A stretch of DNA of 55,607 nt from a virus (taxonomy: Duplodnaviria > Caudoviricetes). Below are positions 2,775 through 14,442 of this stretch, in pieces. The translations under genes and the position numbers were made by a program. Where the stretch lies: positions 1-55,607 of the IMG/VR virus record IMGVR_UViG_3300030098_002332. The stretch is one strand, 5' to 3'. The notes beneath the pieces are model-generated. The model ran no database searches. It was not told the DNA's origin and worked only from the letters and a program-made list of their open reading frames with translations. How positions within the stretch are numbered: position 1 is the stretch's first letter; each line of letters begins with the position of its first letter.

Positions 2775-3473
2775 TTAGTCTATATATATATCTGACCAGT
2801 TCATAGGCATGGTCTTGCCCTTTAGATGTGCACAGCGTGAGCCAGCAGTTATATCATCAAGAGAGTTAAAGCTAACCATAGTCTGGTCATCTTCTCTGTA
2901 AATATAACCAACAGCATCAGCGTTAGCACAAGTGATTTGCTTGATTTTGCCAGTTAAGTCAAGATCCTTTACAGCAACCTCTTTACCTTTCTTCTCAAGC
3001 ATTTTGTCTTTTAGGTGGCCAACTAAGATAACATGATCCGCCAACAGGTTTAGTCTATCTATCCACTTTTTGTAGGCCATCCGCAAATATAGATAACCAG
3101 CGCCATTTGGCAATGATAATATTGACATTCCTGGGTTTTTAGTCTCAAAGTTTTTACCCATAGGTGTTTTCATATAAATTTTCTTGCCTTCTGCTTCACA
3201 CCACTCCTCAAGTTTAGATATAGTGTCGATAGCAACATATTTATATGGTTTTCCAGCTGTTATAATAGCTCTACCAACATCACCTAGTTCTTTTAAATTA
3301 TTTGCTTTAATCTTTAAAGCATCAACCATGTCTGAACCATCTTCTAGGTCGATGATTAGACAGTTGTCAAGTTGTGATAATACTGTAGTCTTGCCAATCT
3401 TTGGCGGACCATAGATTATCATGTTTTTAGGCGATTTACGGCTAGCCTTTACCTTCTCTTTTGGTAATTCCAT
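2775..3473 (-). CDS. AAA_24/Sak4-like P-loop ATPase
   Basis: Walker A YGPPKIGKTT, IIDLEDG, Walker B VAIDTI, ILVGH, ADAVGY. Confidence 0.8.
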   Translation of the reverse strand: MELPKEKVKASRKSPKNMIIYGPPKIGKTTVLSQLDNCLIIDLEDGSDMVDALKIKANNLKELGDVGRAIITAGKPYKYVAIDTISKLEEWCEAEGKKIYMKTPMGKNFETKNPGMSILSLPNGAGYLYLRMAYKKWIDRLNLLADHVILVGHLKDKMLEKKGKEVAVKDLDLTGKIKQITCANADAVGYIYREDDQTMVSFNSLDDITAGSRCAHLKGKTMPMNWSDIYID

Positions 3474-3474
3474 A

Positions 3475-3633
3475 TTAATTAGTTTTTAATTTACTTCTAA
3501 CTGCGTCTCTTCTAGACATTAACTGTGTTGTTTTTTCTTCGTCATTCTTAAACCTCTTTAGTCTTTTGTCTATAGCGTTTATTTCATTTAGAAGCGCCAG
3601 CTTGGCTTTGTTTTTTGCGTTCCTTTTGCTCAT
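3475..3633 (-). CDS. Small basic coiled-coil protein (52 aa, not in ORF track)
   Basis: MSKRNAKNKAKLALLNEINAIDKRLKRFKNDEEKTTQLMSRRDAVRSKLKTN fills the gap to the ATPase start. Confidence 0.6.
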   Translation of the reverse strand: MSKRNAKNKAKLALLNEINAIDKRLKRFKNDEEKTTQLMSRRDAVRSKLKTN

Positions 3634-3769: not shown

Positions 3770-4714
3770 TTATTTTCTTTCGTTAATAGTAAATGTTGAC
3801 ATCTCTGCCTCATAAGGTATCATACCTAGCAGGCCATCACGATTTTTCTCAACGTGACATGCTAGTAGCTTAAGAGGATCTTCACCACAATATAGATCTG
3901 TAATGCCATACAAATCATGTGGTCTTTGTAGCATCATAACAACATGTGCGTCCTGACCAATACTGTCACCGCCAAACAAATCTGTCAGCAGTGGTTGATA
4001 CTGTGCCTTTGCACGATGTTCTTGCTCAATGTTACGATTTAGCTGAGACAATAAAATATTTATAGTGCCCATTTTAGCTTGTAGCCACATACAACCTTTT
4101 GACACCTCATTTAGTTTCTGCAACTCATTGTCTTTATCACTAAGGATAAGTCTAGAGTGGTCAAATACATTTATGATTGTGTGATCCGGCCTTTTATTTG
4201 TTATCTCAACGTTAGCATTTTTAACAAACTCCATATCTCTAGGAATATTGTTAAAATAAATAGGGTAGTGTGCATACTTAAATACCTCTTTCTTAAACTT
4301 CTCGTATGCATCCATCTCTAGCTTTTGTTCTACAGATAGAAGCTCACTAACCTGTTTGTTTACACCTTTAGCACCAGCACGCATAATTTGCTGATGACCA
4401 GGCATCTCAAAACTCCAGTATAATACTAGTAGTTTCTTGTTTTTGTTATTATCTAGTAAATCAAATATCAATTGGTTACTGAATGCAGATTTACCTACAC
4501 CTGGACGGCCAGCTATAACATACATTTTACCAGGCTGTAAACCACCTAGTAAGTTTCTGTTTAACCTTGTCCATTTTGTAGGATAAACCTGTCTTCTACC
4601 ATTAATACCATTCTCTACCTGATGTAACGAAGCACCAATAGCTGTCTTGATGCTCTTAAATCCGCTATCTTTAAAGGGATCTTGTAATTCTTTGGGCAAC
4701 TGTTCTTTTGTCAT
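3770..4714 (-). CDS. dnaB: DnaB-like replicative helicase (RecA core)
   Basis: Walker A GRPGVGKS, SFEM, LSQLNR, SIGQDAHVV, KNRDG. Confidence 0.9.
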   Translation of the reverse strand: MTKEQLPKELQDPFKDSGFKSIKTAIGASLHQVENGINGRRQVYPTKWTRLNRNLLGGLQPGKMYVIAGRPGVGKSAFSNQLIFDLLDNNKNKKLLVLYWSFEMPGHQQIMRAGAKGVNKQVSELLSVEQKLEMDAYEKFKKEVFKYAHYPIYFNNIPRDMEFVKNANVEITNKRPDHTIINVFDHSRLILSDKDNELQKLNEVSKGCMWLQAKMGTINILLSQLNRNIEQEHRAKAQYQPLLTDLFGGDSIGQDAHVVMMLQRPHDLYGITDLYCGEDPLKLLACHVEKNRDGLLGMIPYEAEMSTFTINERK

Positions 4715-7868: not shown

Positions 7869-9758
7869 TTATTTTTCCCAGCAGTTACTAACTGATACCT
7901 CAGCTTTTAACAAACCGTTCGTTACTATCTCTAGTGCAGCCTCCTCCATCATTCTTTGCATGTTGTGTGTCCAATCAGATAAATAATCGTTTCTACATAT
8001 TGTATCTATCTGATCATGCACAGTCATGACTAGCTTGACAGGCAGGTCAAATTGATTGATATGATTACGCATCAATATCAACGCTTTCTTAGTCATATCT
8101 GCGCTAGCTCCCTGTATAGGTGTGTTTTTAGATGCACGTTCAATACTACCTAGCTCCATAGATGATGACTTGTTATCCCATATTCTAGGATACCAGTTAG
8201 TAAACCATCTACGTCTGTTATAAGGAGGAAATGTTTTTATATACCCATATTTCTTACCAAAATTACCTAGCTTCTCCAAAAATCCTTTAATTGATGGAAA
8301 AGCTGTAAAATACTTTTCAATAAGTAATTTAGCATCGTCAACAGAAATGTTGAGAGTGTCTGCAAGTTTATGAGGACCCATGCCATAAGCCAGGCCAAAA
8401 TTAATAGTTTTAACATTATTTCTTAGTTTTTTGTGGGAAGGACAATTGCACTTTTGCTTACGACTAAAATAAGCACAATCGTCTTCACCACTATTTAACC
8501 ACTGATCACCATAGACTAACTCAGCACACGTGGAGTGTAGGTCTTCACCATTCTTTAACGCCTCAATCCATACAGGATCTTTAGAACCAAATGCAATAAC
8601 ATTTAACTCTTGACTAGAATAGTCAGCCGAAACAAAACTCCAACCATCGGGTGCAGTGAAGCAATTCCTAAAACTATTATCAGCAGGTATTTGCTGCATG
8701 TTAGGCTTGCTACTACTTACACGGCCGGTGTCTAATATTTGATGAAAACTAGTATGTATTCTTTTATCAGAAGCTAGATTCTTAAAAAATGCATCACCAT
8801 AAGATGTACACAGTTTCATAGCCTCCTTGTATTTTACATACTTGTCTATTAGTGGATATTTAAATCTGTGTTTGTACATCTGTTTACCATTTACATTATC
8901 TAAATCAGGTACAATACACTGAAACACCTCTAGCACTTGCTTTGGTGATGTCCATTTTACATCTACATCTCTAAGCTCTTCTACAGGTGTAAACATGTCT
9001 GCTTGTATGTATTTAGCCACAAACTTTTGTAATCTGTGATCCATCTTAACCATGTTATCTAATGTAGACATCAAAGCATCAGCTTTACTTGTATTTAAAC
9101 TTTCAAGCTCTCTCCATGCTTCTGTATCTAAATCTAAGCCATTGTACTCCATGTCAGCAAAAGCCTTTACTACCTCGTTTTCTAGTTTAACAACATTGTG
9201 CAGTTTATATTTATCTATATCTGCTTGTTGTAGCTCTTTTATTTTACATAGGTATTCTACATCCTTTGCACCATAGATTATCTGATCATCTGTAAAAGGA
9301 TGTCCATGTAAATCTATAAACAAGTTTCTAACCTCCTTGTTTAGCTCTACATTTAAATATCTTTTACATAAATCTTTTAATCCATAACCTAGAGATTTAC
9401 CACAGCTTATAATTAACTCTACAAGAAATGTATCATAAATACCTTCACAGGTTATATTAGCCCATTTTTTAATAAACTTGTAATCAAACTTAGCATTGTG
9501 AAATATCTTTACAATATCATTTGATTCTAATATCTCTCGTAAAGGCTCTATACTTACAAATCTTGTATCTATAATATATTGATTATTAGTATCACCTATC
9601 TGAAACATTATCATCTTTTTACATGTAAAGTCAAATCCTTCTGTCTCCGTGTCTACACCCAAAACTTTCTTAGTTTTACAATATTCTACTACATCATCTA
9701 TAGTAGCATCTGTAAAGTTTGCGTTTAAACTCTTAGTGTTACTAATAAAGTATATCAT
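7869..9758 (-). CDS. polA: Family A DNA polymerase with 3'-5' exonuclease
   Basis: Exo DTET, HNAKFD, YGAKD; TGRVSS..PNMQQIP; motif A ADYSSQEL; motif B KTINFGLAYG; motif C VHDQI. Confidence 0.95.
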   Translation of the reverse strand: MIYFISNTKSLNANFTDATIDDVVEYCKTKKVLGVDTETEGFDFTCKKMIMFQIGDTNNQYIIDTRFVSIEPLREILESNDIVKIFHNAKFDYKFIKKWANITCEGIYDTFLVELIISCGKSLGYGLKDLCKRYLNVELNKEVRNLFIDLHGHPFTDDQIIYGAKDVEYLCKIKELQQADIDKYKLHNVVKLENEVVKAFADMEYNGLDLDTEAWRELESLNTSKADALMSTLDNMVKMDHRLQKFVAKYIQADMFTPVEELRDVDVKWTSPKQVLEVFQCIVPDLDNVNGKQMYKHRFKYPLIDKYVKYKEAMKLCTSYGDAFFKNLASDKRIHTSFHQILDTGRVSSSKPNMQQIPADNSFRNCFTAPDGWSFVSADYSSQELNVIAFGSKDPVWIEALKNGEDLHSTCAELVYGDQWLNSGEDDCAYFSRKQKCNCPSHKKLRNNVKTINFGLAYGMGPHKLADTLNISVDDAKLLIEKYFTAFPSIKGFLEKLGNFGKKYGYIKTFPPYNRRRWFTNWYPRIWDNKSSSMELGSIERASKNTPIQGASADMTKKALILMRNHINQFDLPVKLVMTVHDQIDTICRNDYLSDWTHNMQRMMEEAALEIVTNGLLKAEVSVSNCWEK

Positions 9759-10270: not shown

Positions 10271-10906
10271 TTACATGCCTACTCCCAATACCTCAACCTC
10301 ATCTGCTGTTACACCTGTATTAGGTTTTACAGTAGTTTGAAGGCTAGTATCAGAAGCTAGAAATACATGTGCAGGATTACTACCTTTTGGTAATAAATCT
10401 ACATATGAGTTTCTAAATATATGCTGACCTTTGTGTAAGATCGCATCTCCTCCTTTACCTGCTCTTTTACAAAAATGCTCAACTACATCCAATCCGTTAT
10501 CCTCTGCATAGTCTTTCTGTGATTTTGTAGGCTCTAGTGTCTCCTCAAGTCTAACTCTAAAGAATACGTTGTTAAATGTAGGATTTAATATATTCAAATC
10601 CATCATCTCAACTTTTTTTCCGTTAGCTTTCTCTCCCAAATACCAGTCACCATCATCTCCAAAGTTTGTTTTAAATATTTTAGATGCATCTGCTATCTCA
10701 GCAACAGCCCAACCTCTAGCTGCTCCAGAGCTAAATCTATTATCACTAGCATTTAATGCTGTTAGTGCAGACATTGGTCTATCTTTTGATGTAACTTTCT
10801 CAGCAAACTCAAGCTGTATTTTGTCTGTTGATGTTTTGTATGCTTTTGTTATCATACATTCTCCTACTTTTAATGTGTTTAAGTCACCACTGTTTAATTC
10901 ATTCAT
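10271..10906 (-). CDS. Hypothetical early protein (possible OB-fold)
   Basis: 211-aa ORF with conserved TAAATCAATTAAAC-ATG leader. Confidence 0.7.
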   Translation of the reverse strand: MNELNSGDLNTLKVGECMITKAYKTSTDKIQLEFAEKVTSKDRPMSALTALNASDNRFSSGAARGWAVAEIADASKIFKTNFGDDGDWYLGEKANGKKVEMMDLNILNPTFNNVFFRVRLEETLEPTKSQKDYAEDNGLDVVEHFCKRAGKGGDAILHKGQHIFRNSYVDLLPKGSNPAHVFLASDTSLQTTVKPNTGVTADEVEVLGVGM

Positions 10907-11196: not shown

Positions 11197-11310
11197 TTAG
11201 TTAATAATATGGTTTTCTATAAGTAATGCAACAATGATAAGTAATATCCCACAATAACTGTAGGATAATACTCTCATTGAATATTTGTAACTATCATTTT
11301 TATACATCAT
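11197..11310 (-). CDS. Small hydrophobic peptide (37 aa, not in ORF track)
   Basis: MMYKNDSYKYSMRVLSYSYCGILLIIVALLIENHIIN; ATGA overlap with the upstream gene. Confidence 0.45.
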   Translation of the reverse strand: MMYKNDSYKYSMRVLSYSYCGILLIIVALLIENHIIN

Positions 11311-11534
11311 TTTACTTCATTGTCTTTCATCATCTTCTCCATTTCAACGTATAGTTTTTCATAGTCTTGCTCAAGAGCTTTGTTCTTTTCTTTTAACTCA
11401 ATAATCTCAAGTTTATATTGAACAGCTTCTGTTGTTAGTCTGTCAACATCTTGCAATGCTCTTGTTAATTCTAGATTCTTAGTTCTAATTTTTTGTTCTT
11501 CATCATAATTGATGTTGTTAATTGGTAGTGCCAT
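11307..11534 (-). CDS. Coiled-coil early protein directly downstream of the twister ribozyme
   Basis: Heptad pattern; AATTAAAC-ATG leader. Confidence 0.7.
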   Translation of the reverse strand: MALPINNINYDEEQKIRTKNLELTRALQDVDRLTTEAVQYKLEIIELKEKNKALEQDYEKLYVEMEKMMKDNEVK

Positions 11535-11562
11535 GTTTAATTAATTTTAGTTAATATTTTAG

Positions 11563-11629
11563 CTAATTGTGCTCACTCTGTATTTTCACGGGCTTGTGAC
11601 CGTCCTTGGCTACATTAAGCACGAATTAG
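11563..11629 (-). ncRNA. Twister ribozyme (type P1)
   Basis: Minus strand GUGCU-UAA-UGUA-GC-CAAGG-ACGG-UCACAAG-CCCGU-GAAAA-UACA-GAGUG-AGCAC. P1 GUGCU/AGCAC, P2 UGUA/UACA, P4 ACGG/CCGU, pseudoknots CAC/GUG and GC/GC. Predicted cleavage U/A between 11617 and 11616. Confidence 0.9.
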
Positions 11630-12104
11630 GGGATTACAAGTCCCAAAGTAATACCATCAGGTTTTTACACCTGTAAATCTCGATACATATTATACATCTC
11701 CCAATGTATTCTTATAATTACTAATCCACTTGGACGTCATAATTACATCAAATAATCTACTACAGATTAAAATATACTATCATCAGTCAAAGGCGTGACA
11801 TCATAGATAGTTTAGTATCATACTAACAATCAGTTTGTTTTTACTTAATTATTAGTTATTACTTTAGATGTATCCAACTGTTAAGTTAGTGAAGCTATAA
11901 CATTTGTTATAACCTATTCGTCTGGATGACTATACATCTCTGTCCACTCTTGCTAGTACAAGTGTTAACGACAGTTCTAATTCTAAGGAGTCTTGCAATA
12001 CTCCCTACGCTATTCTGTTCTGGTCTCTATTACCGAGTGTGGTAGCCAGTTCCCCTATTTATCCACTTTTTACTATTAGTCTCCTGTAAGGACACACTAA
12101 TAGT
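11627..12104 (-). ncRNA. Large multi-branch structured RNA candidate (unassigned)
   Basis: No ORF; abutting inverted-repeat-closed domains 11645-11865, 11866-11939, 11940-11974, plus hairpins 11987-12004, 12020-12049, 12072-12104; long-range TAGGGGA/TCCCCTA (11627-33/12051-57). Strand inferred from flanking genes. Confidence 0.55.
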
Positions 12105-12112
12105 CATATTTA

Positions 12113-12188
12113 AAATAAAGAATAGTCCACATGCCTTACGGTTTACCACTGCAGGTTGTTATCCAAGACGTTCTACTATTCTTTATTT
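12113..12188 (-). ncRNA. Stem-closed RNA module A
   Basis: Perfect 14-bp IR AAATAAAGAATAGT/ACTATTCTTTATTT enclosing a more GC-rich 48-nt core. Confidence 0.6.
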
Positions 12189-12213
12189 GTGTTTAGTTAA
12201 TGTTTAGGTTAAA

Positions 12214-12303
12214 AACTATCATGAGTGTCTTAGGTAATTATTTAGACTATTAGATACACACGACCTAACCAAGACCATTACCCTTGGATCTCTCATGATA
12301 GTT
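12214..12303 (-). ncRNA. Stem-closed RNA module B (junction with pseudoknot)
   Basis: Perfect 12-bp IR AACTATCATGAG/CTCATGATAGTT; inner hairpin CCAAG/CUUGG whose loop GGUAAU is complementary to downstream AUUACC. Confidence 0.6.
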
Positions 12304-12310
12304 ATTATAA

Positions 12311-12421
12311 AACAACAACAGTAAGTTTACTACATGTTCTAGGTGAATATTAGAATATTCGATAAGTTTTAAATGTGGTTTCATCATCAGAACACTCCAC
12401 TTTACCTTACCTGTTGTTGTT
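12311..12421 (-). ncRNA. Stem-closed RNA module C (hammerhead-like core or pseudoknot)
   Basis: Perfect 11-bp IR AACAACAACAG/CTGTTGTTGTT plus GTAAG/CTTAC; core CUGAUGA-U-GAAAC. Confidence 0.55.
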
Positions 12422-12423
12422 AT

Positions 12424-12510
12424 AATGCAACCGTTGCCTCTATCTCTGGTCGGTTAACTACTAAGCACCAACTAGTATTTATGCTTTTCGTGATTATTAT
12501 AAGTTGCATT
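12424..12510 (-). ncRNA. Stem-closed RNA module D
   Basis: 8-bp IR AATGCAAC/GTTGCATT; inner AAGCAU/GUGCUU and alternative GUUGGU/ACCGAC pairing. Confidence 0.45.
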
Positions 12511-12530
12511 TGATTAGAAATGAACAGTTT

Positions 12531-12755
12531 CTACACTTGTTCAGGTGTTATTATTTTGTAACTATGGTTGTCCCAGAGTTTACGACTACATCTTCTTACA
12601 AGTGCAGTTGTTCTTCCTTCTAATGGAGTTTCATGTACATATTCTACAAACTTGTCATGTTTTTTAACAAGTATACAATTAGATCTTCCAGACTCCATGT
12701 TAATTATTATACATCCTTCATTTCCTAAAGAGTATTCATTCATATTTATTCTCAT
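12531..12755 (-). CDS. Hypothetical early protein
   Basis: 74-aa ORF with A-rich leader. Confidence 0.6.
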   Translation of the reverse strand: MRINMNEYSLGNEGCIIINMESGRSNCILVKKHDKFVEYVHETPLEGRTTALVRRCSRKLWDNHSYKIITPEQV

Positions 12756-12906
12756 AGTGTTATATTGTATTATATTAGTATTCTAGTTAATTGTCAAATT
12801 GTGTAGAAAAGTGGTGAATGTGATGTGGTACACACACTAACGAACAGTGTAATATACCACCCCACCCATAGATTAGTAACAACATTGTTACAATCCCCAC
12901 CTATAT

Positions 12907-12933
12907 AAAAAAAAGAAGAAGTCCTTAGACTTC
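12907..12933 (-). terminator. Terminator overlapping the stop of the first leftward gene
   Basis: Minus strand GAAGTC-TAAG-GACTTC then TTCTTTTTTTT. Confidence 0.6.
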
Positions 12934-13125
12934 AACTTTTAGTGGTTTACCAGAATTGATTTCGTCCCACCTGTCGAAGGCAGATTCAAGACTGGTGTAC
13001 ACAACTTTTTCTTTGGTGTGAGTATCAGTTTTGGAATCAAAGGATTCTTCCGTGATTCCTACTCTACATGGTGTTCCGTTCTTGTCCACTTTAGTGTCAA
13101 GAACTTTTACTACTGTTAGTATCAT
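12925..13125 (-). CDS. Hypothetical early protein (first leftward gene)
   Basis: 66-aa ORF with more GC-rich codon usage than its neighbours. Confidence 0.6.
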   Translation of the reverse strand: MILTVVKVLDTKVDKNGTPCRVGITEESFDSKTDTHTKEKVVYTSLESAFDRWDEINSGKPLKVEV

Positions 13126-13162
13126 AATTAAAAGTATTTTAGTTAGGATAGTTAATATTATT

Positions 13163-13202
13163 TGTGGGGGGTACCCTAAACCCCCAACACTAGCCGGGGT
13201 GT
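13163..13202. other. GC-rich palindromic element at the strand switch
   Basis: TGTGGGGGGTACCCTAAACCCCCAACACTAGCCGGGGTGT in otherwise AT-rich DNA. Confidence 0.5.
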
Positions 13203-13285
13203 CTGTACAAGGAGGACCGTACGCTCACAGATCTACCTCAAAAAAATTTTTTATATTTTATTTTTTTATTCCATTTATTTTATTT

Positions 13286-13293
13286 TATCTTTG
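13286..13293 (+). promoter_or_regulatory. Bacteroidota -7 promoter box
   Basis: TATCTTTG(CA) after a T-rich tract. Confidence 0.6.
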
Positions 13294-13297
13294 CACC

Positions 13298-13540
13298 GCA
13301 ACAATATTCATCCCTCGGTAACCAAAAAAGGGAAAAGACATCGGATTGTAGGGCTAAATAAGTCTAGAGTTTTCTCCGGTAGTTGCAAAAGAACAAGTGT
13401 ATAAGTTCTAGTTGGGGTAAATTACACATAGGTAAGTGTGATGAATTAACATCAGTTTTATTATCCCTGGGTCTCTGTAAAAAGAAGCACTGCTAGAGTG
13501 AAATCCAAGTTTGAAAGAGAAATCCTAAGGGGGATAACTA
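13298..13540 (+). ncRNA. ~240-nt structured ncRNA candidate
   Basis: Begins just after the promoter. Helices GCAAC/GTTGC, TCCCT/AGGGA, ATCGGA/TCCGGT, AGAAC/GTTCT, TTACAC/GTGTGA, GATG/CATC, TTATCCC/GGGATAA, TCTCT/AGAGA; no credible ORF. Confidence 0.5.
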
Positions 13541-13567
13541 TATCCTAATCAAAAATACTGTAAAACA

Positions 13568-13600
13568 TTTGGAAGTATAAAAAAATTGTTTATATATTTG
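13568..13600 (+). promoter_or_regulatory. Bacteroidota sigma70 promoter (-33/-7)
   Basis: TTTG (13568-71), 21-nt spacer, TATATTTG (13593-600); 17 nt upstream of GroES ATG. Confidence 0.75.
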
Positions 13601-13617
13601 CACAAAAATATATAGAT

Positions 13618-13881
13618 ATGAAATTTATACCAAACGGATCGTGGGTTGTCCTACCTGACCCAAGTAAAAAGAAAACAGATTCTGGAATTATCTTAGATGA
13701 TAAGACTGCCAGAAAACAATCAACTAACATTTTAGAGGTATTGGCTGTAGGCCCACACTGTACTTTTGTAAAAAAAGGTGATACTGTTATGGTTGATCCT
13801 AGAACAGAAGCTGTAATTGCAAATATAGAAGACACGCAATACTTATTAGTTGGAGAACATCAATTATTAGGTAAGTGGTAA
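13618..13881 (+). CDS. groES: GroES/Cpn10-like co-chaperonin
   Basis: FIPNGSWVVL, KTDSGIIL, EVLAVGP, VKKGDTV. Confidence 0.85.
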   Translation: MKFIPNGSWVVLPDPSKKKTDSGIILDDKTARKQSTNILEVLAVGPHCTFVKKGDTVMVDPRTEAVIANIEDTQYLLVGEHQLLGKW

Positions 13882-14117
13882 AAGGATCTGTTACAATAGA
13901 CTTAAAAGATTACCACGCTTTACTAGAATCAGCAGAAAAAACGATAGAAGTAAAAGAAAAGTTTTTTACAGCCGGTAAAGAACTGCAGGTTTTTTTGTCT
14001 TTTTTAACGTCTAGAGTAGATATAGAGAAATATGTAGAGGAATTTAACAGACAATCTAAAACATCTAGAATAGTCTTTGAAGGTACAACAGCAAAAATAG
14101 AATTAAAAGATGAATAA
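13875..14117 (+). CDS. Hypothetical protein
   Basis: Coupled ORF (GTG start). Confidence 0.6.
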   Translation: MVKGSVTIDLKDYHALLESAEKTIEVKEKFFTAGKELQVFLSFLTSRVDIEKYVEEFNRQSKTSRIVFEGTTAKIELKDE

Positions 14118-14442
14118 AAGAAAAATAACAGTTAATATAGATAGTACCTATAAATATTTGCAATTATGGAATGGCATTTTTAATTTAACAGATAAAGAGC
14201 TTTCTATTTTAGCATCTTTTATAGATACTAATATAATTAAAGAGGATATTAACATATGTAGTGTATCTAATAAAAAATCTGTAGCTAAAATAATGGGAAT
14301 AAAAGATTATAATACTTTAAATAACTATGTAAAAAAATTTAAAGATAAAGGAGCGATAATACTATCAAATAATACTTATAAACTTAATCCTTTTTTAAAT
14401 CCAGATACAGATTCAGTAGAAATAACAATATCAAGAGGATAA
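14110..14442 (+). CDS. Winged-helix (RepL-like) DNA-binding protein
   Basis: LTDKELSIL...VAKIMGI...LNNYVKKFKDKG...YKLNP. Confidence 0.6.
   Translation: MNKRKITVNIDSTYKYLQLWNGIFNLTDKELSILASFIDTNIIKEDINICSVSNKKSVAKIMGIKDYNTLNNYVKKFKDKGAIILSNNTYKLNPFLNPDTDSVEITISRG

What the first reader, a model, noticed from the sequence alone, without database searches (positions are those of the whole stretch)
11563..12510. ~1-kb tandem array of stem-closed RNA modules ending in a twister ribozyme
Seen: in a gene-dense phage this 950-nt stretch has no credible ORF and is tiled by inverted-repeat-closed units. Several abut with 0-10 nt spacing: 11563-11629, 11630-11644, 11645-11865, 11866-11939, 11940-11974, then 12072-12104, 12113-12188, then 12214-12303, 12311-12421, 12424-12510. 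The larger closing stems are perfect 8-14 bp, and the interiors differ from each other. Known: twister and hammerhead ribozymes often neighbour orphan structured motifs (RAGATH RNAs). Inference: this is an ncRNA operon in the early region. The closing stems insulate portable functional RNAs (ribozymes, protein decoys, anti-defence RNAs), and self-cleavage separates them from the downstream mRNA.
Basis: partly seen in the sequence, partly recalled or inferred. Interest (0 to 1): 0.92.

Follow-up and report, generated by a model that had tools for sequence, protein, structure and literature searches.

The report
Phage RNA array ending in twister
A marine phage carries a 1-kb gene-free stretch that encodes several small folded RNAs and one large, elaborately folded RNA of a new kind with a self-cutting twister ribozyme at its end, sitting exactly where sister phages carry the enigmatic GOLLD RNA.

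Summary
Window 11535-12530 has stops in all six frames and is read on the MINUS strand. It holds five stem-closed modules (A 12424-12510, B 12311-12421, C 12214-12303, D 12113-12188, E 12072-12104). After them comes one ~440-nt multi-helix RNA, "F" (11617-12005), which ends in a twister ribozyme (11567-11623).

The twister scores 54.8 bits against Rfam's cut-off of 67.2 because it lacks the P3 hairpin. Its helices and one pseudoknot pair covary in 100 distinct phage copies.

F is a real, strand-specific structured RNA. In 15 sequences, 63 of 106 pairs show compensatory change, against 32.4 ± 3.0 in shuffles (0 of 500 reach it). In 49 sequences, 58 of 92 pairs do. F matches no Rfam family.

Modules A, B and D are separate conserved families that are shuffled between relatives. 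Metatranscriptome contigs cover F and A-B but not the flanking genes.

In sister phages the same slot upstream of the same genes holds GOLLD RNA.

Function is still inferred.

The parts
12769..12797 (-). sigma70-type promoter (TTGACA, 17 nt, TATAAT), the likely start of the transcript that carries the array
   Evidence: 12 of 12 consensus matches, the only such site in 11200-14200. A terminator-like hairpin lies just upstream at 12933-12918(-). Homologous promoter-like blocks in L002, L020 and L055 were seen by eye.
12531..12755 (-). 74-aa ORF, the first gene of the transcript, directly upstream of the array
   Evidence: No PHROG or Pfam family. Its last 38 nt are shared with L002.
12424..12510 (-). 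Module A, 87 nt, closed by a 7-bp stem. It is a conserved RNA family with long invariant unpaired stretches.
   Evidence: 10 distinct copies at 74-100% identity. Alignment of 9: 17 predicted pairs, 5 with compensatory change. In L055 and L022 it lies between an upstream region and the next gene's leader. Its fold is not better than shuffles (z -1.0). It is covered by RNA-library contigs from X12 and X13.
12311..12421 (-). Module B, 111 nt, with an 11-15 bp closing stem, an inner covarying stem, invariant junction nucleotides and a variable insert
   Evidence: 8 distinct copies. Alignment of 8: 24 pairs, 10 with compensatory change. z -2.75. In L004 it sits between an ORF stop and the next leader; in L079 it sits right after the promoter-like block. 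It is covered by RNA-library contigs from X12 and X13.
12214..12303 (-). Module C, 90 nt, with a 12-bp perfect closing stem
   Evidence: z -3.35. No homologue was found except the identical copy in L247, which is probably the same phage, so covariation cannot be tested.
12180..12215 (-). Conserved ~35-nt leader-like motif. In relatives it stands directly before the ATG of small genes. Here it is followed by module D, and its last 9 nt form the start of D's 5' arm.
   Evidence: 43 blast matches, most of them followed by ATG within about 5 nt; the 15-nt core occurs once without mismatch in the window. Weaker copies lie before the starts at 11534 and 10009.
12113..12188 (-). Module D, 76 nt, with a 14-bp perfect closing stem. 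It is 100% identical in phages whose DNA polymerase is only 78% identical.
   Evidence: identical in the window, L247, L002, L300, L302 and L020/L018, with variants at 88% (L266) and 76% (L267). Alignment of 3: 23 pairs, 5 compensatory. z -3.83. It directly precedes F in L002 and L267, precedes GOLLD in L020, and follows F in L266.
12072..12104 (-). Module E, a 33-nt hairpin with a 9-bp perfect stem
   Evidence: z -2.99. Absent from L002. No homologue beyond L247.
12017..12071 (-). Spacer between E and F, weakly similar to the stretch upstream of F in a few relatives
   Evidence: 76-82% identity over 39-50 nt in L106, L087, L075 and L068. Absent from L002.
11987..12004 (-). F RNA 5' hairpin (H0). 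The stem covaries. The 8-nt loop (11992-11999) holds the invariant palindrome UUGCAA, a candidate kissing loop.
   Evidence: all 5 pairs show compensatory change. UUGCAA is present in 15 of 15 sequences that were found without using this motif. RNA-library contigs of X12 and X13 begin at 12005, one nucleotide 5' of the covarying stem (12004-12000).
11623..11983 (-). F RNA core: about 360 nt closed by the long-range helix 11977-11983/11623-11629. It contains three multi-helix domains (11940-11974, 11866-11939, 11645-11865) and the hairpin 11630-11644.
   Evidence: 15 sequences: 96.6% of cells paired and 63 of 106 pairs compensatory, against 32.4 ± 3.0 in shuffles (0 of 500) and 13-26 for slid partners. 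49 sequences: 58 of 92 pairs. Strand test: minus -90.1 kcal/mol with 181 G-U cells; plus -52.0 with 26. No ORF in any of the 8 homologues checked. No Rfam match.
11567..11623 (-). Type-P1 twister ribozyme without the P3 hairpin. P1 is 11616-11622/11569-11575, P2 is 11611-11614/11579-11582, P4 is 11600-11603/11588-11591.
   Evidence: 54.8 bits, E 3.7e-11. (own model, 82.5 bits). (100 distinct copies: P2 fully paired in 96, P4 in 96; pseudoknot pair G:C in 82, A:U in 15, other in 3). (coordinates).
11616..11617 (-). Predicted self-cleavage site, between U11617 and A11616 of the UAA internal loop
   Evidence: Placed from the alignment to the Rfam consensus. The position of the scissile bond in the family is recalled from the twister literature, not tested here. 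An RNA-library contig (X18) ends at 11620; contigs cannot prove an RNA end.
11307..11534 (-). 75-aa ORF whose mRNA would begin with the twister body after cleavage
   Evidence: the start codon lies 33 nt after the end of the F match. A homologue follows F in L002. In other relatives different small genes follow F.

Best explanation
The stretch is the untranslated middle of a leftward, probably early, phage transcript that starts at a consensus sigma70-type promoter.

It encodes two kinds of RNA on the minus strand:
1. Five independently folding small modules (A-E), each closed by a long stem. At least three (A, B, D) are conserved RNA families that move as cassettes between related phages.
2. 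A ~440-nt, 18-19-helix RNA of a new class (F). Its closing helix is followed 6 nt later by the cleavage site of a built-in type-P1 twister that lacks P3.

Shown here:
- The structures, their strand and their covariation.
- The modular exchange between relatives.
- The twister architecture.
- Presence of F and A-B, but not of the flanking genes, in assemblies of RNA libraries.
- GOLLD RNA in the same genomic slot in sister phages.

Inferred:
- The twister cuts between U11617 and A11616. This would give F a defined 3' end with a 2',3'-cyclic phosphate and leave a 5'-OH, ribozyme-capped mRNA for the next gene.
- Free F accumulates as a stable trans-acting RNA that does the same, still unknown, job as GOLLD/ROOL-type phage RNAs. 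It may act as a homo-oligomer through its invariant palindromic UUGCAA loop.
- The closing stems let the small modules fold without interfering with each other and delimit the units that recombination exchanges.
For: Non-coding: stops in all frames here and in 8 homologues.

F structure:
- 8 sequences: 47 of 120 pairs compensatory.
- 15 sequences: 63 of 106, 96.6% of cells paired, 0 of 500 shuffles reach it, slid controls 13-26.
- 49 sequences: 58 of 92.
- Strand: minus -90.1 kcal/mol with 181 G-U cells, against plus -52.0 with 26. The same helices read on the other strand are only 85.7% paired.

Twister:
- Rfam E 3.7e-11.
- Covariation of P2, P4 and one pseudoknot pair in 100 distinct copies.
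- All 49 full-length F sequences end in it.
- In 64 of 101 phage contexts the same twister type sits within 60 nt of an upstream ORF end, and in 65 of 101 within 60 nt of the next ORF start. This fits a role as an intercistronic cutter.

Modules:
- Mosaic conservation across relatives.
- L002 has 95% DNA polymerase identity yet carries a different module instead of A-B-C and lacks E.
- Covariation is seen in B, A and D.

Expression hint: at 99-100% identity, RNA-library contigs cover 11699-12005 and 12281-12539 (X12 and X13, one study) and 11620-11816 (X18, another study). None covers the flanking ORFs.

GOLLD in the same slot:
- RF02032 scores 222 bits in L020.
- GOLLD homologues occur in 5 distinct relatives.
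- All of these lie upstream of the homologue of the 211-aa gene and the DNA polymerase.
- Identical module D precedes GOLLD in L020 and F in L002.
- A ~200-nt segment is shared between the 5' side of L020's GOLLD and the twister-terminated RNA of L057/L004.

GOLLD and ROOL are phage RNAs of unknown function that form kissing-loop-stabilised nanocages (passages of bioRxiv 10.1101/2024.12.08.627333).
Against: - No cleavage, RNA end or abundance was measured. The laid runs are assembled contigs, which cannot show ends, strand or level. One contig of a relative (X17) runs through the twister uncut or comes from DNA.
- X12 and X13 belong to one study, so the shared contig ends are not independent.
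- The GOLLD argument is positional only. F has no detectable similarity to GOLLD or ROOL (no Rfam match at E up to 10).
- Of 40 relatives with enough upstream DNA, 5 have F or F2 and 6 have GOLLD. 21 have other ORF-free gaps of at least 350 nt of unknown content, and 8 have none. A large RNA in this neighbourhood is therefore not universal.
- Module A folds no better than shuffles.
- C and E have no homologues, so nothing supports them beyond their stems.
- The closing stems of A-E in the window are pure Watson-Crick and carry no strand information.
- UUGCAA invariance is unbiased only for 15 sequences, because the metagenome scan required it. The related RNA of L057/L004 lacks it.
- Oligomerisation is conjecture.
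- In relatives the modules sit between a stop codon and the next leader, which also fits a purely cis-acting role.
Confidence: 0.62

Rival explanations
1. The whole array acts only in cis. It would be a set of intercistronic processing, stabilising or terminating structures, like the RNase III sites between early genes of T7-type phages. These would shape the polycistronic early mRNA, and the twister would be one more cutter. No RNA here would have a function of its own.
For: In relatives, modules A and B lie exactly between an ORF stop and the next gene's leader, often followed by a U-rich run. The same twister type is mostly a lone element in short intergenic gaps: both gaps are 60 nt or less in 45 of 101 contexts. 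The genes downstream of F differ between relatives. The T7 comparison is recalled knowledge.
Against: A ~440-nt RNA with 18-19 covarying helices and invariant loops is far more than an end-protecting hairpin needs. Modules A and B keep long invariant unpaired stretches. GOLLD, a free-standing RNA that forms particles, fills the same slot in sister phages. RNA-library contigs cover F and A-B but not the neighbouring ORFs. No terminator-like site lies inside 11535-12530.
Confidence: 0.2
2. The modules, and perhaps F, are anti-defence or host-takeover RNAs: decoys or sponges for host nucleases, toxin-antitoxin, CRISPR or retron-type systems. Their cassette-like turnover would reflect an arms race. 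It is compatible with the best explanation and names a function.
For: The array lies near the start of a strongly promoted transcript among small, fast-changing genes. Cassette exchange occurs between near-identical phages. Module D is 100% identical across phages with 78% DNA polymerase identity, which suggests recent transfer or very strong constraint. D's 3' arm is complementary to the conserved leader motif of the small genes.
Against: No similarity to any known decoy, CRISPR repeat, antitoxin RNA or retron RNA: there are 0 relevant Rfam matches, and the PADLOC library was not searched. The host is unknown. Nothing here tests an interaction.
Confidence: 0.12
3. The inverted repeats act at the DNA level, as a replication origin, a packaging or recombination site, or miniature mobile elements with terminal inverted repeats. 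The RNA folds would be incidental.
For: The closing stems are perfect and strand-symmetric. Both strands fold better than shuffles. The location is just upstream of the replication genes. Module D is identical in diverged genomes.
Against: F's helices are strand-specific: 181 G-U cells on the minus strand against 26 on the plus strand, and 85.7% pairing when mirrored. A ribozyme is built in. Each module is single-copy per genome and shows no flanking duplications. The stems of B, A and D change by compensatory substitution while unpaired nucleotides stay invariant. The sequences are present in RNA libraries.
Confidence: 0.04
4. F is a strongly diverged member of GOLLD or of another known large RNA family, not a new class.
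For: F occupies the same slot as GOLLD. The L057/L004 RNA joins a segment also found at the 5' side of L020's GOLLD to an F-like 3' part. GOLLD's 5' region is known to vary (passage).
Against: No GOLLD, ROOL or other match at E up to 10 on the window or on L057, while the true GOLLD of L020 scores 222 bits. nhmmer with the L020 GOLLD finds nothing in any F locus except a 155-nt piece elsewhere in L062. GOLLD in these phages has no twister (one search found no match in L020, L030, L058, L059 or L060).
Confidence: 0.05

Closest known systems
GOLLD RNA (Rfam RF02032), and by context ROOL RNA
   Same: A large, many-helix, phage-encoded RNA of unknown function. Sister phages carry GOLLD in exactly this slot, upstream of the 211-aa gene homologue and the DNA polymerase, in one case preceded by the identical module D. 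The invariant palindromic hairpin loop in F recalls the kissing loops that hold GOLLD and ROOL cages together (passages).
   Different: No sequence or model similarity. F is about half the size: ~440 nt against over 800 nt for GOLLD. No tRNA lies nearby (0 tRNAs in the window). F always carries a 3' twister (49 of 49), whereas the GOLLD copies of these phages have none. Oligomerisation of F is untested.
Type-P1 twister ribozyme (Rfam RF03160, clan CL00120)
   Same: P1, P2 and P4, the conserved loop nucleotides and the pseudoknots are present.
   Different: It lacks the P3 hairpin and so falls below Rfam's gathering score (54.8 against 67.2). The first loop triplet and its partner read CAC/GUG instead of the consensus CCC/GGG. 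It is fused to the 3' end of a large structured RNA. Most copies of the same subtype stand alone between genes.
RAGATH-type orphan motifs found near twister and hammerhead ribozymes (recalled from the ribozyme literature; only a search listing of PMC6765202 was seen)
   Same: Unexplained structured RNAs that neighbour a self-cleaving ribozyme in phage-like DNA.
   Different: None of the RAGATH families held in Rfam matched. Here the neighbours are a tandem array plus a ~440-nt RNA physically fused to the ribozyme.
RNase III processing hairpins between early genes of T7-like phages (recalled)
   Same: Intergenic stem-loops in a strongly promoted early polycistronic transcript. Modules in relatives lie between a stop codon and the next leader.
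   Different: The modules have conserved unpaired cores, inner helices and variable inserts. Cutting here is by a ribozyme. No RNase III dependence was tested.
Phage tRNA islands with attached ribozymes, such as HDV-like 'theta' ribozymes next to phage tRNAs (recalled, not read)
   Same: A tandem array of small, stem-closed, roughly 75-110-nt RNAs next to a self-cleaving ribozyme, in the genomic context where GOLLD and ROOL usually sit beside tRNAs (passages).
   Different: ARAGORN finds no tRNA and Rfam finds none. The modules are not cloverleaves.

Membership tests
Twister ribozyme, type P1 (RF03160) | Score at or above Rfam's curated gathering threshold | tested here: not met
   54.8 bits against 67.2; absent from the gathering scan. 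The loss comes from 16 deleted model positions, the P3 hairpin (alignment).
Twister ribozyme, type P1 (RF03160) | Helices P1, P2 and P4 in the family's order, kept by covariation | tested here: met
   (helices 16-19 covary within the F family). P2 is 4 of 4 paired in 96 of 100 distinct copies, with about 20 pair combinations. P4 is 3 of 3 paired in 96 of 100, with at least 10 combinations.
Twister ribozyme, type P1 (RF03160) | Conserved core nucleotides (UAA internal loop, the GGUC.CAAGCCC loop, AAA, GAG) | tested here: met
   Alignment to the consensus. These nucleotides are invariant in 49 of 49 F-linked copies, except one C-to-U change in the loop.
Twister ribozyme, type P1 (RF03160) | Two pseudoknots between the P4 loop and the junction or internal loop | tested here: met
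   The junction nucleotide against the variable loop position gives G:C in 82, A:U in 15 and other in 3 of 100 copies. The second contact reads CAC/GUG where the consensus has CCC/GGG, a double change that keeps pairing. That triplet was fixed by my search pattern, so it could not vary. Which contact is called T1 or T2 is recalled.
Twister ribozyme, type P1 (RF03160) | Site-specific self-cleavage | not testable with these tools
   Needs in vitro transcription and end mapping. The contigs cannot show ends.
GOLLD RNA (RF02032) | Match to the conserved 3' domain model | tested here: not met
   No match at E up to 10 on 11300-12800 or on L057. The positive control in relative L020 scores 222.4 bits.
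GOLLD RNA (RF02032) | Phage location, usually beside tRNAs | tested here: inconclusive
   The phage location and the same slot as true GOLLD in sister phages are met. tRNA adjacency is not met: 0 tRNAs.
GOLLD/ROOL-like behaviour (works like, not membership) | RNA-only homo-oligomer held by kissing loops | not testable with these tools
   The only lead is an invariant palindromic loop on a covarying stem in 15 of 15 unbiased sequences.
ROOL, hammerhead, hatchet, pistol, twister-sister, HDV-like, group I/II introns, RNase P, tmRNA, 6S and all other Rfam 15 families | Any covariance-model match | tested here: not met
   0 matches at gathering score in the window. At E up to 10 the only hits are the twister and one snoRNA chance hit at E 3.4. 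Two CUGAUGA boxes on the minus strand were seen by eye. The one in F is not conserved in relatives; the one in module B falls in its variable insert.
tRNA / tRNA island | Cloverleaf recognised by a tRNA finder | tested here: not met
   ARAGORN finds 0 genes in the whole window.

The most novel reading that the evidence does not exclude
F is a new class of large ornate phage RNA that is functionally interchangeable with GOLLD. Marine phages of this lineage would keep a 'large-RNA slot' upstream of their replication genes and fill it with GOLLD, with F, or with hybrids of the two. F would mature by its own twister and then assemble into homo-oligomers through its invariant palindromic UUGCAA loop. 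The small stem-closed modules around it (A, B, D) would be further undescribed functional RNA classes exchanged as cassettes.
Probability: 0.3. Interest if true: 0.9.

Novelty: new variant of a known kind. Interest (0 to 1): 0.8.

Why it matters
What GOLLD and ROOL do has been open since their discovery. The passages read here still call their function unknown, even though their cage structures are solved. A natural swap helps with that question. Sister phages with the same neighbouring genes carry either GOLLD or an unrelated ~440-nt RNA, and one hybrid exists. Whatever the two RNAs share (partners, timing, particle formation) is a candidate for the function, and F is small enough for structure work.

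The finding also gives twister ribozymes a concrete and testable biological task: making the 3' end of a large non-coding RNA and the 5' end of the next mRNA. It shows too that a P3-less subtype, which falls below Rfam's cut-off, is common in phage contigs.

Modules A, B and D are three further candidate RNA motifs with covariation and invariant cores.

If none of the functional inferences holds, this is still a new conserved structured RNA family with at least 49 distinct members in marine metagenomes.

Tried and rejected
**Readings tested and dropped**
- Coding under another genetic code: rejected, since every frame holds all three stop codons many times.
- tRNA array: rejected.
- Hammerhead, from the CUGAUGA boxes seen by eye: rejected. 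There is no Rfam match, the box in F is not conserved, and the box in B lies in a variable insert.
- A known large RNA: no Rfam match.
- Similarity to deposited phages: only 42-44 nt of the twister matched 2 records, MT835475.1 and Roseburia phage Shimadzu.

**Host search**
- The genome-contig scan gave 11 hits. nhmmer with the F profile matched none of them. The three I read (two Polaribacter MAG contigs and Yeosuana) showed no F homology around the match, and the two Polaribacter matches read as an open protein frame. No host can be named.
- The DNA polymerase is only 26-30% identical to crAss-like phages.

**Rfam on relatives**
- 11 further relatives with unexplained ORF-free gaps gave 0 matches.

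**Flanking proteins**
- No PHROG or Pfam family for the 74-, 75-, 86-, 82- and 211-aa products.
- The Atlas gave only leads for the 211-aa protein: viral hypothetical clusters, and YukJ/DUF2278 at 0.91.

**RNA libraries**
- No contig of X12, X13 or X18 covered 12006-12280 (modules C, D, E) or the flanking ORFs. Absence of cover in contigs proves nothing.
- I name no habitat beyond 'marine metagenome' as printed.

**Literature**
- Searches found no description of a twister-terminated large RNA or of these modules.
- PMC10690425 (over 10,000 candidate structured RNAs from IMG/VR) has 0 occurrences of 'twister' or 'ribozyme' in its main text.
- Of 10.64898/2026.07.01.735769 I saw only the outline and abstract.
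- Of PMC6765202 I saw only the search listing.


Full report
**What the window is.** The window is an IMG/VR virus record of 55,607 bases, estimated 64% complete, with 33% GC.
- Genes up to about 13.8 kb run leftward. They include DNA polymerase 7869-9758, helicases, a primase and a UDG-family protein.
- Terminase, portal, major head protein and large virion proteins run rightward.
- The closest deposited phages by DNA polymerase are crAss-like phages, at only 26-30% identity.
- A TARA scaffold of 77.9 kb (L247) carries an identical copy of the whole array and is probably the same phage.

**The observation.**
- Between the ORFs 11307-11534(-) and 12531-12755(-), nothing longer than 46 aa is open. 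Every frame holds 16-36 stops of all three kinds.
- Perfect repeats of at least 9 bp with 10-130 nt loops number 4, against 0.68 ± 0.82 in shuffles (1 of 500 reaches 4). Three windows around 13.5-15 kb of the record also reach 4.
- The minus strand folds better than the plus strand: -249 kcal/mol against -218.4, with z -3.57 against -2.95.
- Rfam at gathering score finds nothing in the window. At E up to 10 it finds a type-P1 twister at 11570-11621 on the minus strand: 54.8 bits, E 3.7e-11, against a cut-off of 67.2. The 16 model positions of the P3 hairpin are deleted.
- ARAGORN finds no tRNA.
- On the minus strand the array therefore reads 12530 to 11535, and the twister is its last element, 33 nt before the next start codon.

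**Relatives.**
- Two anchors were used: the DNA polymerase (80 of 330 matches kept) and the 211-aa neighbour (3 loci).
- blastn of the region against these loci shows mosaic conservation.
- The 3' ~470 nt is conserved at 74-97% in seven loci.
- The stretches corresponding to modules A, B and D each recur in different subsets of loci.
- A ~35-nt motif (12180-12215) recurs in many loci, sometimes twice.

**The large RNA, F.**
- The conserved 3' block has stops in all frames in all 8 sequences examined.
- RNAalifold on 8 sequences gave 120 pairs, 47 with compensatory change.
- A pattern scan of IMG/VR plus nhmmer added members. A scan for the twister subtype added divergent ones: L193, L223/L135 and L157.
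- With 15 distinct sequences there are 106 pairs, 63 of them compensatory.
  - 96.6% of cells are paired.
  - 0 of 500 column shuffles reach the observed values (shuffled mean 32.4 ± 3.0 pairs).
  - Sliding the 3' partners by 1-3 columns gives 13-26 pairs.
  - The structure was derived from the same alignment, which favours it in the slid control.
- A metagenome scan gave 82 loci. nhmmer gave 62 distinct segments.
- I aligned 49 distinct full-length sequences, leaving out the 13 segments that were cut by contig ends or were only the partial L057 match. That gave 92 pairs, 58 compensatory.
- Strand: minus -90.1 kcal/mol with 181 G-U cells; plus -52.0 with 26. The minus-strand helices mirrored onto the plus strand drop to 85.7% paired.
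- Mapped to the window, the architecture is:
  - a 5' hairpin H0 (12004-11987);
  - a long-range closing helix (11983-11977 with 11629-11623);
  - the hairpin 11644-11630;
  - then the twister.
- H0's loop holds the palindrome UUGCAA in all 15 sequences that were found without using it, while all five stem pairs covary.
- No bacterial or archaeal genome representative holds F. The 11 hits of the genome scan got no match from the F profile, and the three I read showed no F homology around the match.

**The twister.**
- A model built from 10 F-linked copies found 13 matches in 83 sources. These include weaker copies in L004/L007 and L057.
- In 100 distinct copies:
  - P2 is fully paired in 96.
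  - P4 is fully paired in 96.
  - The junction nucleotide covaries with the variable loop position: G:C in 82, A:U in 15, other in 3.
- Relative to the Rfam consensus, the loop triplet and its partner read CAC/GUG instead of CCC/GGG, which keeps the pairing. My pattern fixed these letters, so cannot test them.
- I file it as a twister that lacks P3 and fails only the curated score.
- Context: of 101 contexts with ORFs on both sides, the upstream gap is 60 nt or less in 64 and the downstream gap in 65, with both in 45. In 23 the upstream gap is at least 250 nt, and these include the F family.
- The usual setting of this ribozyme in phages is thus a short gap between two co-directional genes. 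Fusion to a large RNA is the special case.
- All 49 full-length F sequences carry it.
- The scissile bond (U11617/A11616) is placed by alignment and by recalled knowledge of the family.

**The small modules.**
- A: 10 distinct copies; 9 aligned give 17 pairs, 5 compensatory. Long unpaired stretches are invariant. Its fold is no better than shuffles.
- B: 8 distinct copies; 24 pairs, 10 compensatory. It has an 11-15-bp outer stem, a covarying inner stem, invariant junction sequences and a variable insert.
- D: identical over 76 nt in the window, L247, L002, L300, L302 and L020/L018, although L020's polymerase is 78% identical. Two variants give 5 compensatory pairs of 23.
- C and E have no homologue beyond L247.
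- L002 has 95% polymerase identity. It carries a different stem-closed module in place of A-B-C and the motif, keeps D, and lacks E and the spacer, so D abuts F.
- In relatives, A and B lie between an ORF stop and the next leader, or right after the promoter-like block.
- The ~35-nt motif stands directly before start codons in relatives. In the window it precedes D, and its last 9 nt are the first 9 nt of D's 5' arm. D's 3' arm is therefore complementary to that leader. This is noted but not followed up.

**Transcription.**
- A 12-of-12 sigma70-type promoter lies at 12797-12769(-), after a terminator-like hairpin at 12933-12918(-). No terminator-like site lies within the array.
- 20 listed public runs hold at least part of the stretch, 6 of them RNA libraries.
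- Four RNA runs were laid.
  - X12 and X13 (one study) have contigs at 99-100% identity over 11699/11700-12005 and 12281/12293-12527/12539.
  - X18 (another study) has 11620-11816.
  - X17 holds a relative, with one contig running through the twister.
  - No contig of X12, X13 or X18 covers the flanking ORFs.
- These are assemblies. They show presence in RNA libraries, not ends or levels.
- Two coincidences are only weak hints: a contig end at 12005, one nucleotide 5' of the H0 stem (12004), and another at 11620, 3 nt from the predicted cut.

**GOLLD in the same slot.**
- A gathering-score Rfam scan of 11 relatives gave one match: GOLLD in L020 at 4098-4483, 222.4 bits.
- nhmmer with that region finds GOLLD in L018 (the same sequence), L030, L058, L059 and L060.
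- In all five distinct loci GOLLD lies 1-1.3 kb upstream of a homologue of the window's 211-aa gene (42-57% identity), followed by the polymerase. F has the same relation to these genes: the 211-aa homologue lies downstream of F in 12 of 15 loci.
- In L020 the identical module D ends just before the GOLLD region.
- L057 and L004/L007 carry a ~650-nt ORF-free, twister-terminated RNA.
  - Its first ~200 nt match the 5' side of L020's GOLLD region (E 1.7e-17 and 6.3e-15).
  - The rest of the L057 RNA matches F.
  - It has no Rfam match apart from the twister.
- Of 40 relatives with at least 3.5 kb upstream of the polymerase, 5 have F or this hybrid and 6 have GOLLD (5 distinct). 21 have other ORF-free gaps of at least 350 nt, and 8 have none.
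- 11 more loci were scanned with Rfam and gave nothing.
- GOLLD and ROOL are described as phage and prophage RNAs of unknown function, often near tRNAs. GOLLD has a conserved 3' region and a variable 5' region, and both form RNA-only cages held by kissing loops and A-minor contacts (passages of 10.1101/2024.12.08.627333; passages of PMC5737381).

**Reading.** The structures, strand, covariation, cassette exchange and twister architecture are shown. Cleavage, release and accumulation of F, its trans action, its equivalence to GOLLD and any oligomerisation are inferred. The main rival is a purely cis-acting processing and stability array. DNA-level explanations fit poorly because of the strand-specific G-U pairs and the ribozyme.

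**Novelty.** Literature searches and the passages read show no description of F or of the modules.

Noticed in passing
window 13126-13616 (core 13285-13550): A second conserved ORF-free block, 72-94% identical in 14 relatives. RNAalifold on 10 sequences gives 44 pairs, 19 compensatory and 18 G-U cells in the minus orientation. In the plus orientation it gives 56 pairs, 16 compensatory, 88 G-U cells and lower energy. It is probably another structured RNA, read from the PLUS strand, in the control region between the two divergent gene blocks. It has no Rfam match.
   Followed up: partly
L020:3587-4499; also L030, L058, L059, L060: True GOLLD RNA (222 bits in L020) in marine phage contigs related to the window. 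It sits upstream of the 211-aa gene homologue and the DNA polymerase and has no twister after it.
   Followed up: yes
L057:4736-5416 and L004:~110-777: A ~650-nt ORF-free RNA ending in a divergent twister. Its first ~200 nt match the 5' side of L020's GOLLD region and the rest of the L057 copy matches F. It is an apparent natural hybrid and lacks the UUGCAA loop.
   Followed up: partly
window 12180-12215(-) and many loci (e.g. L039:5138-5170, L023 twice, L013 twice): A ~35-nt motif kept at 90-100% identity across diverged phages, directly upstream of the ATG of small genes. It may be a promoter, a translation-initiation region or a regulator site, and it could serve as the homology that lets cassettes recombine. 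Module D's 3' arm is complementary to its last 9 nt.
   Followed up: partly
window 12769-12797(-) and 12918-12933(-): A perfect TTGACA-17-TATAAT promoter preceded by a terminator-like hairpin. Together with the A/G-rich stretch before start codons, this looks more like a host with sigma70-type promoters and Shine-Dalgarno use than like Bacteroidota. The host was not determined.
   Followed up: no
21 of 40 related loci, e.g. L040 (549 nt), L083 (650 nt), L048 (540 nt), 1.6-3 kb upstream of the DNA polymerase: Other ORF-free gaps of at least 350 nt in the same neighbourhood, some forming small similarity clusters. None had an Rfam match in the 11 loci scanned. They may hold further unknown RNAs or very small genes.
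   Followed up: partly
L164, L187 (3 twisters each); L129, L141, L144, L147, L156, L174, L189, L203 (2 each): Unrelated phage contigs carry two or three copies of the same P3-less twister subtype, mostly in short gaps between co-directional genes. This subtype falls below Rfam's gathering score in the two copies scored (54.8 and 37.2 bits), so standard annotation may miss it.
   Followed up: partly
window 10271-10906(-): A 211-aa protein with no Pfam or PHROG family. It is the constant downstream neighbour of both F and GOLLD in this phage group. The Atlas gives only leads: viral hypothetical clusters, and YukJ/DUF2278 at 0.91.
   Followed up: partly
L063:~3440-3520; L002:~3520-3600; L020:3330-3500; L055/L079 after the promoter-like block: Further stem-closed modules with other interiors, seen by eye in relatives. 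One is a GC-rich ~70-nt unit between two copies of the leader motif in L063. Another is a module shared by L055 and L079. The set of cassettes is larger than the five in the window.
   Followed up: no
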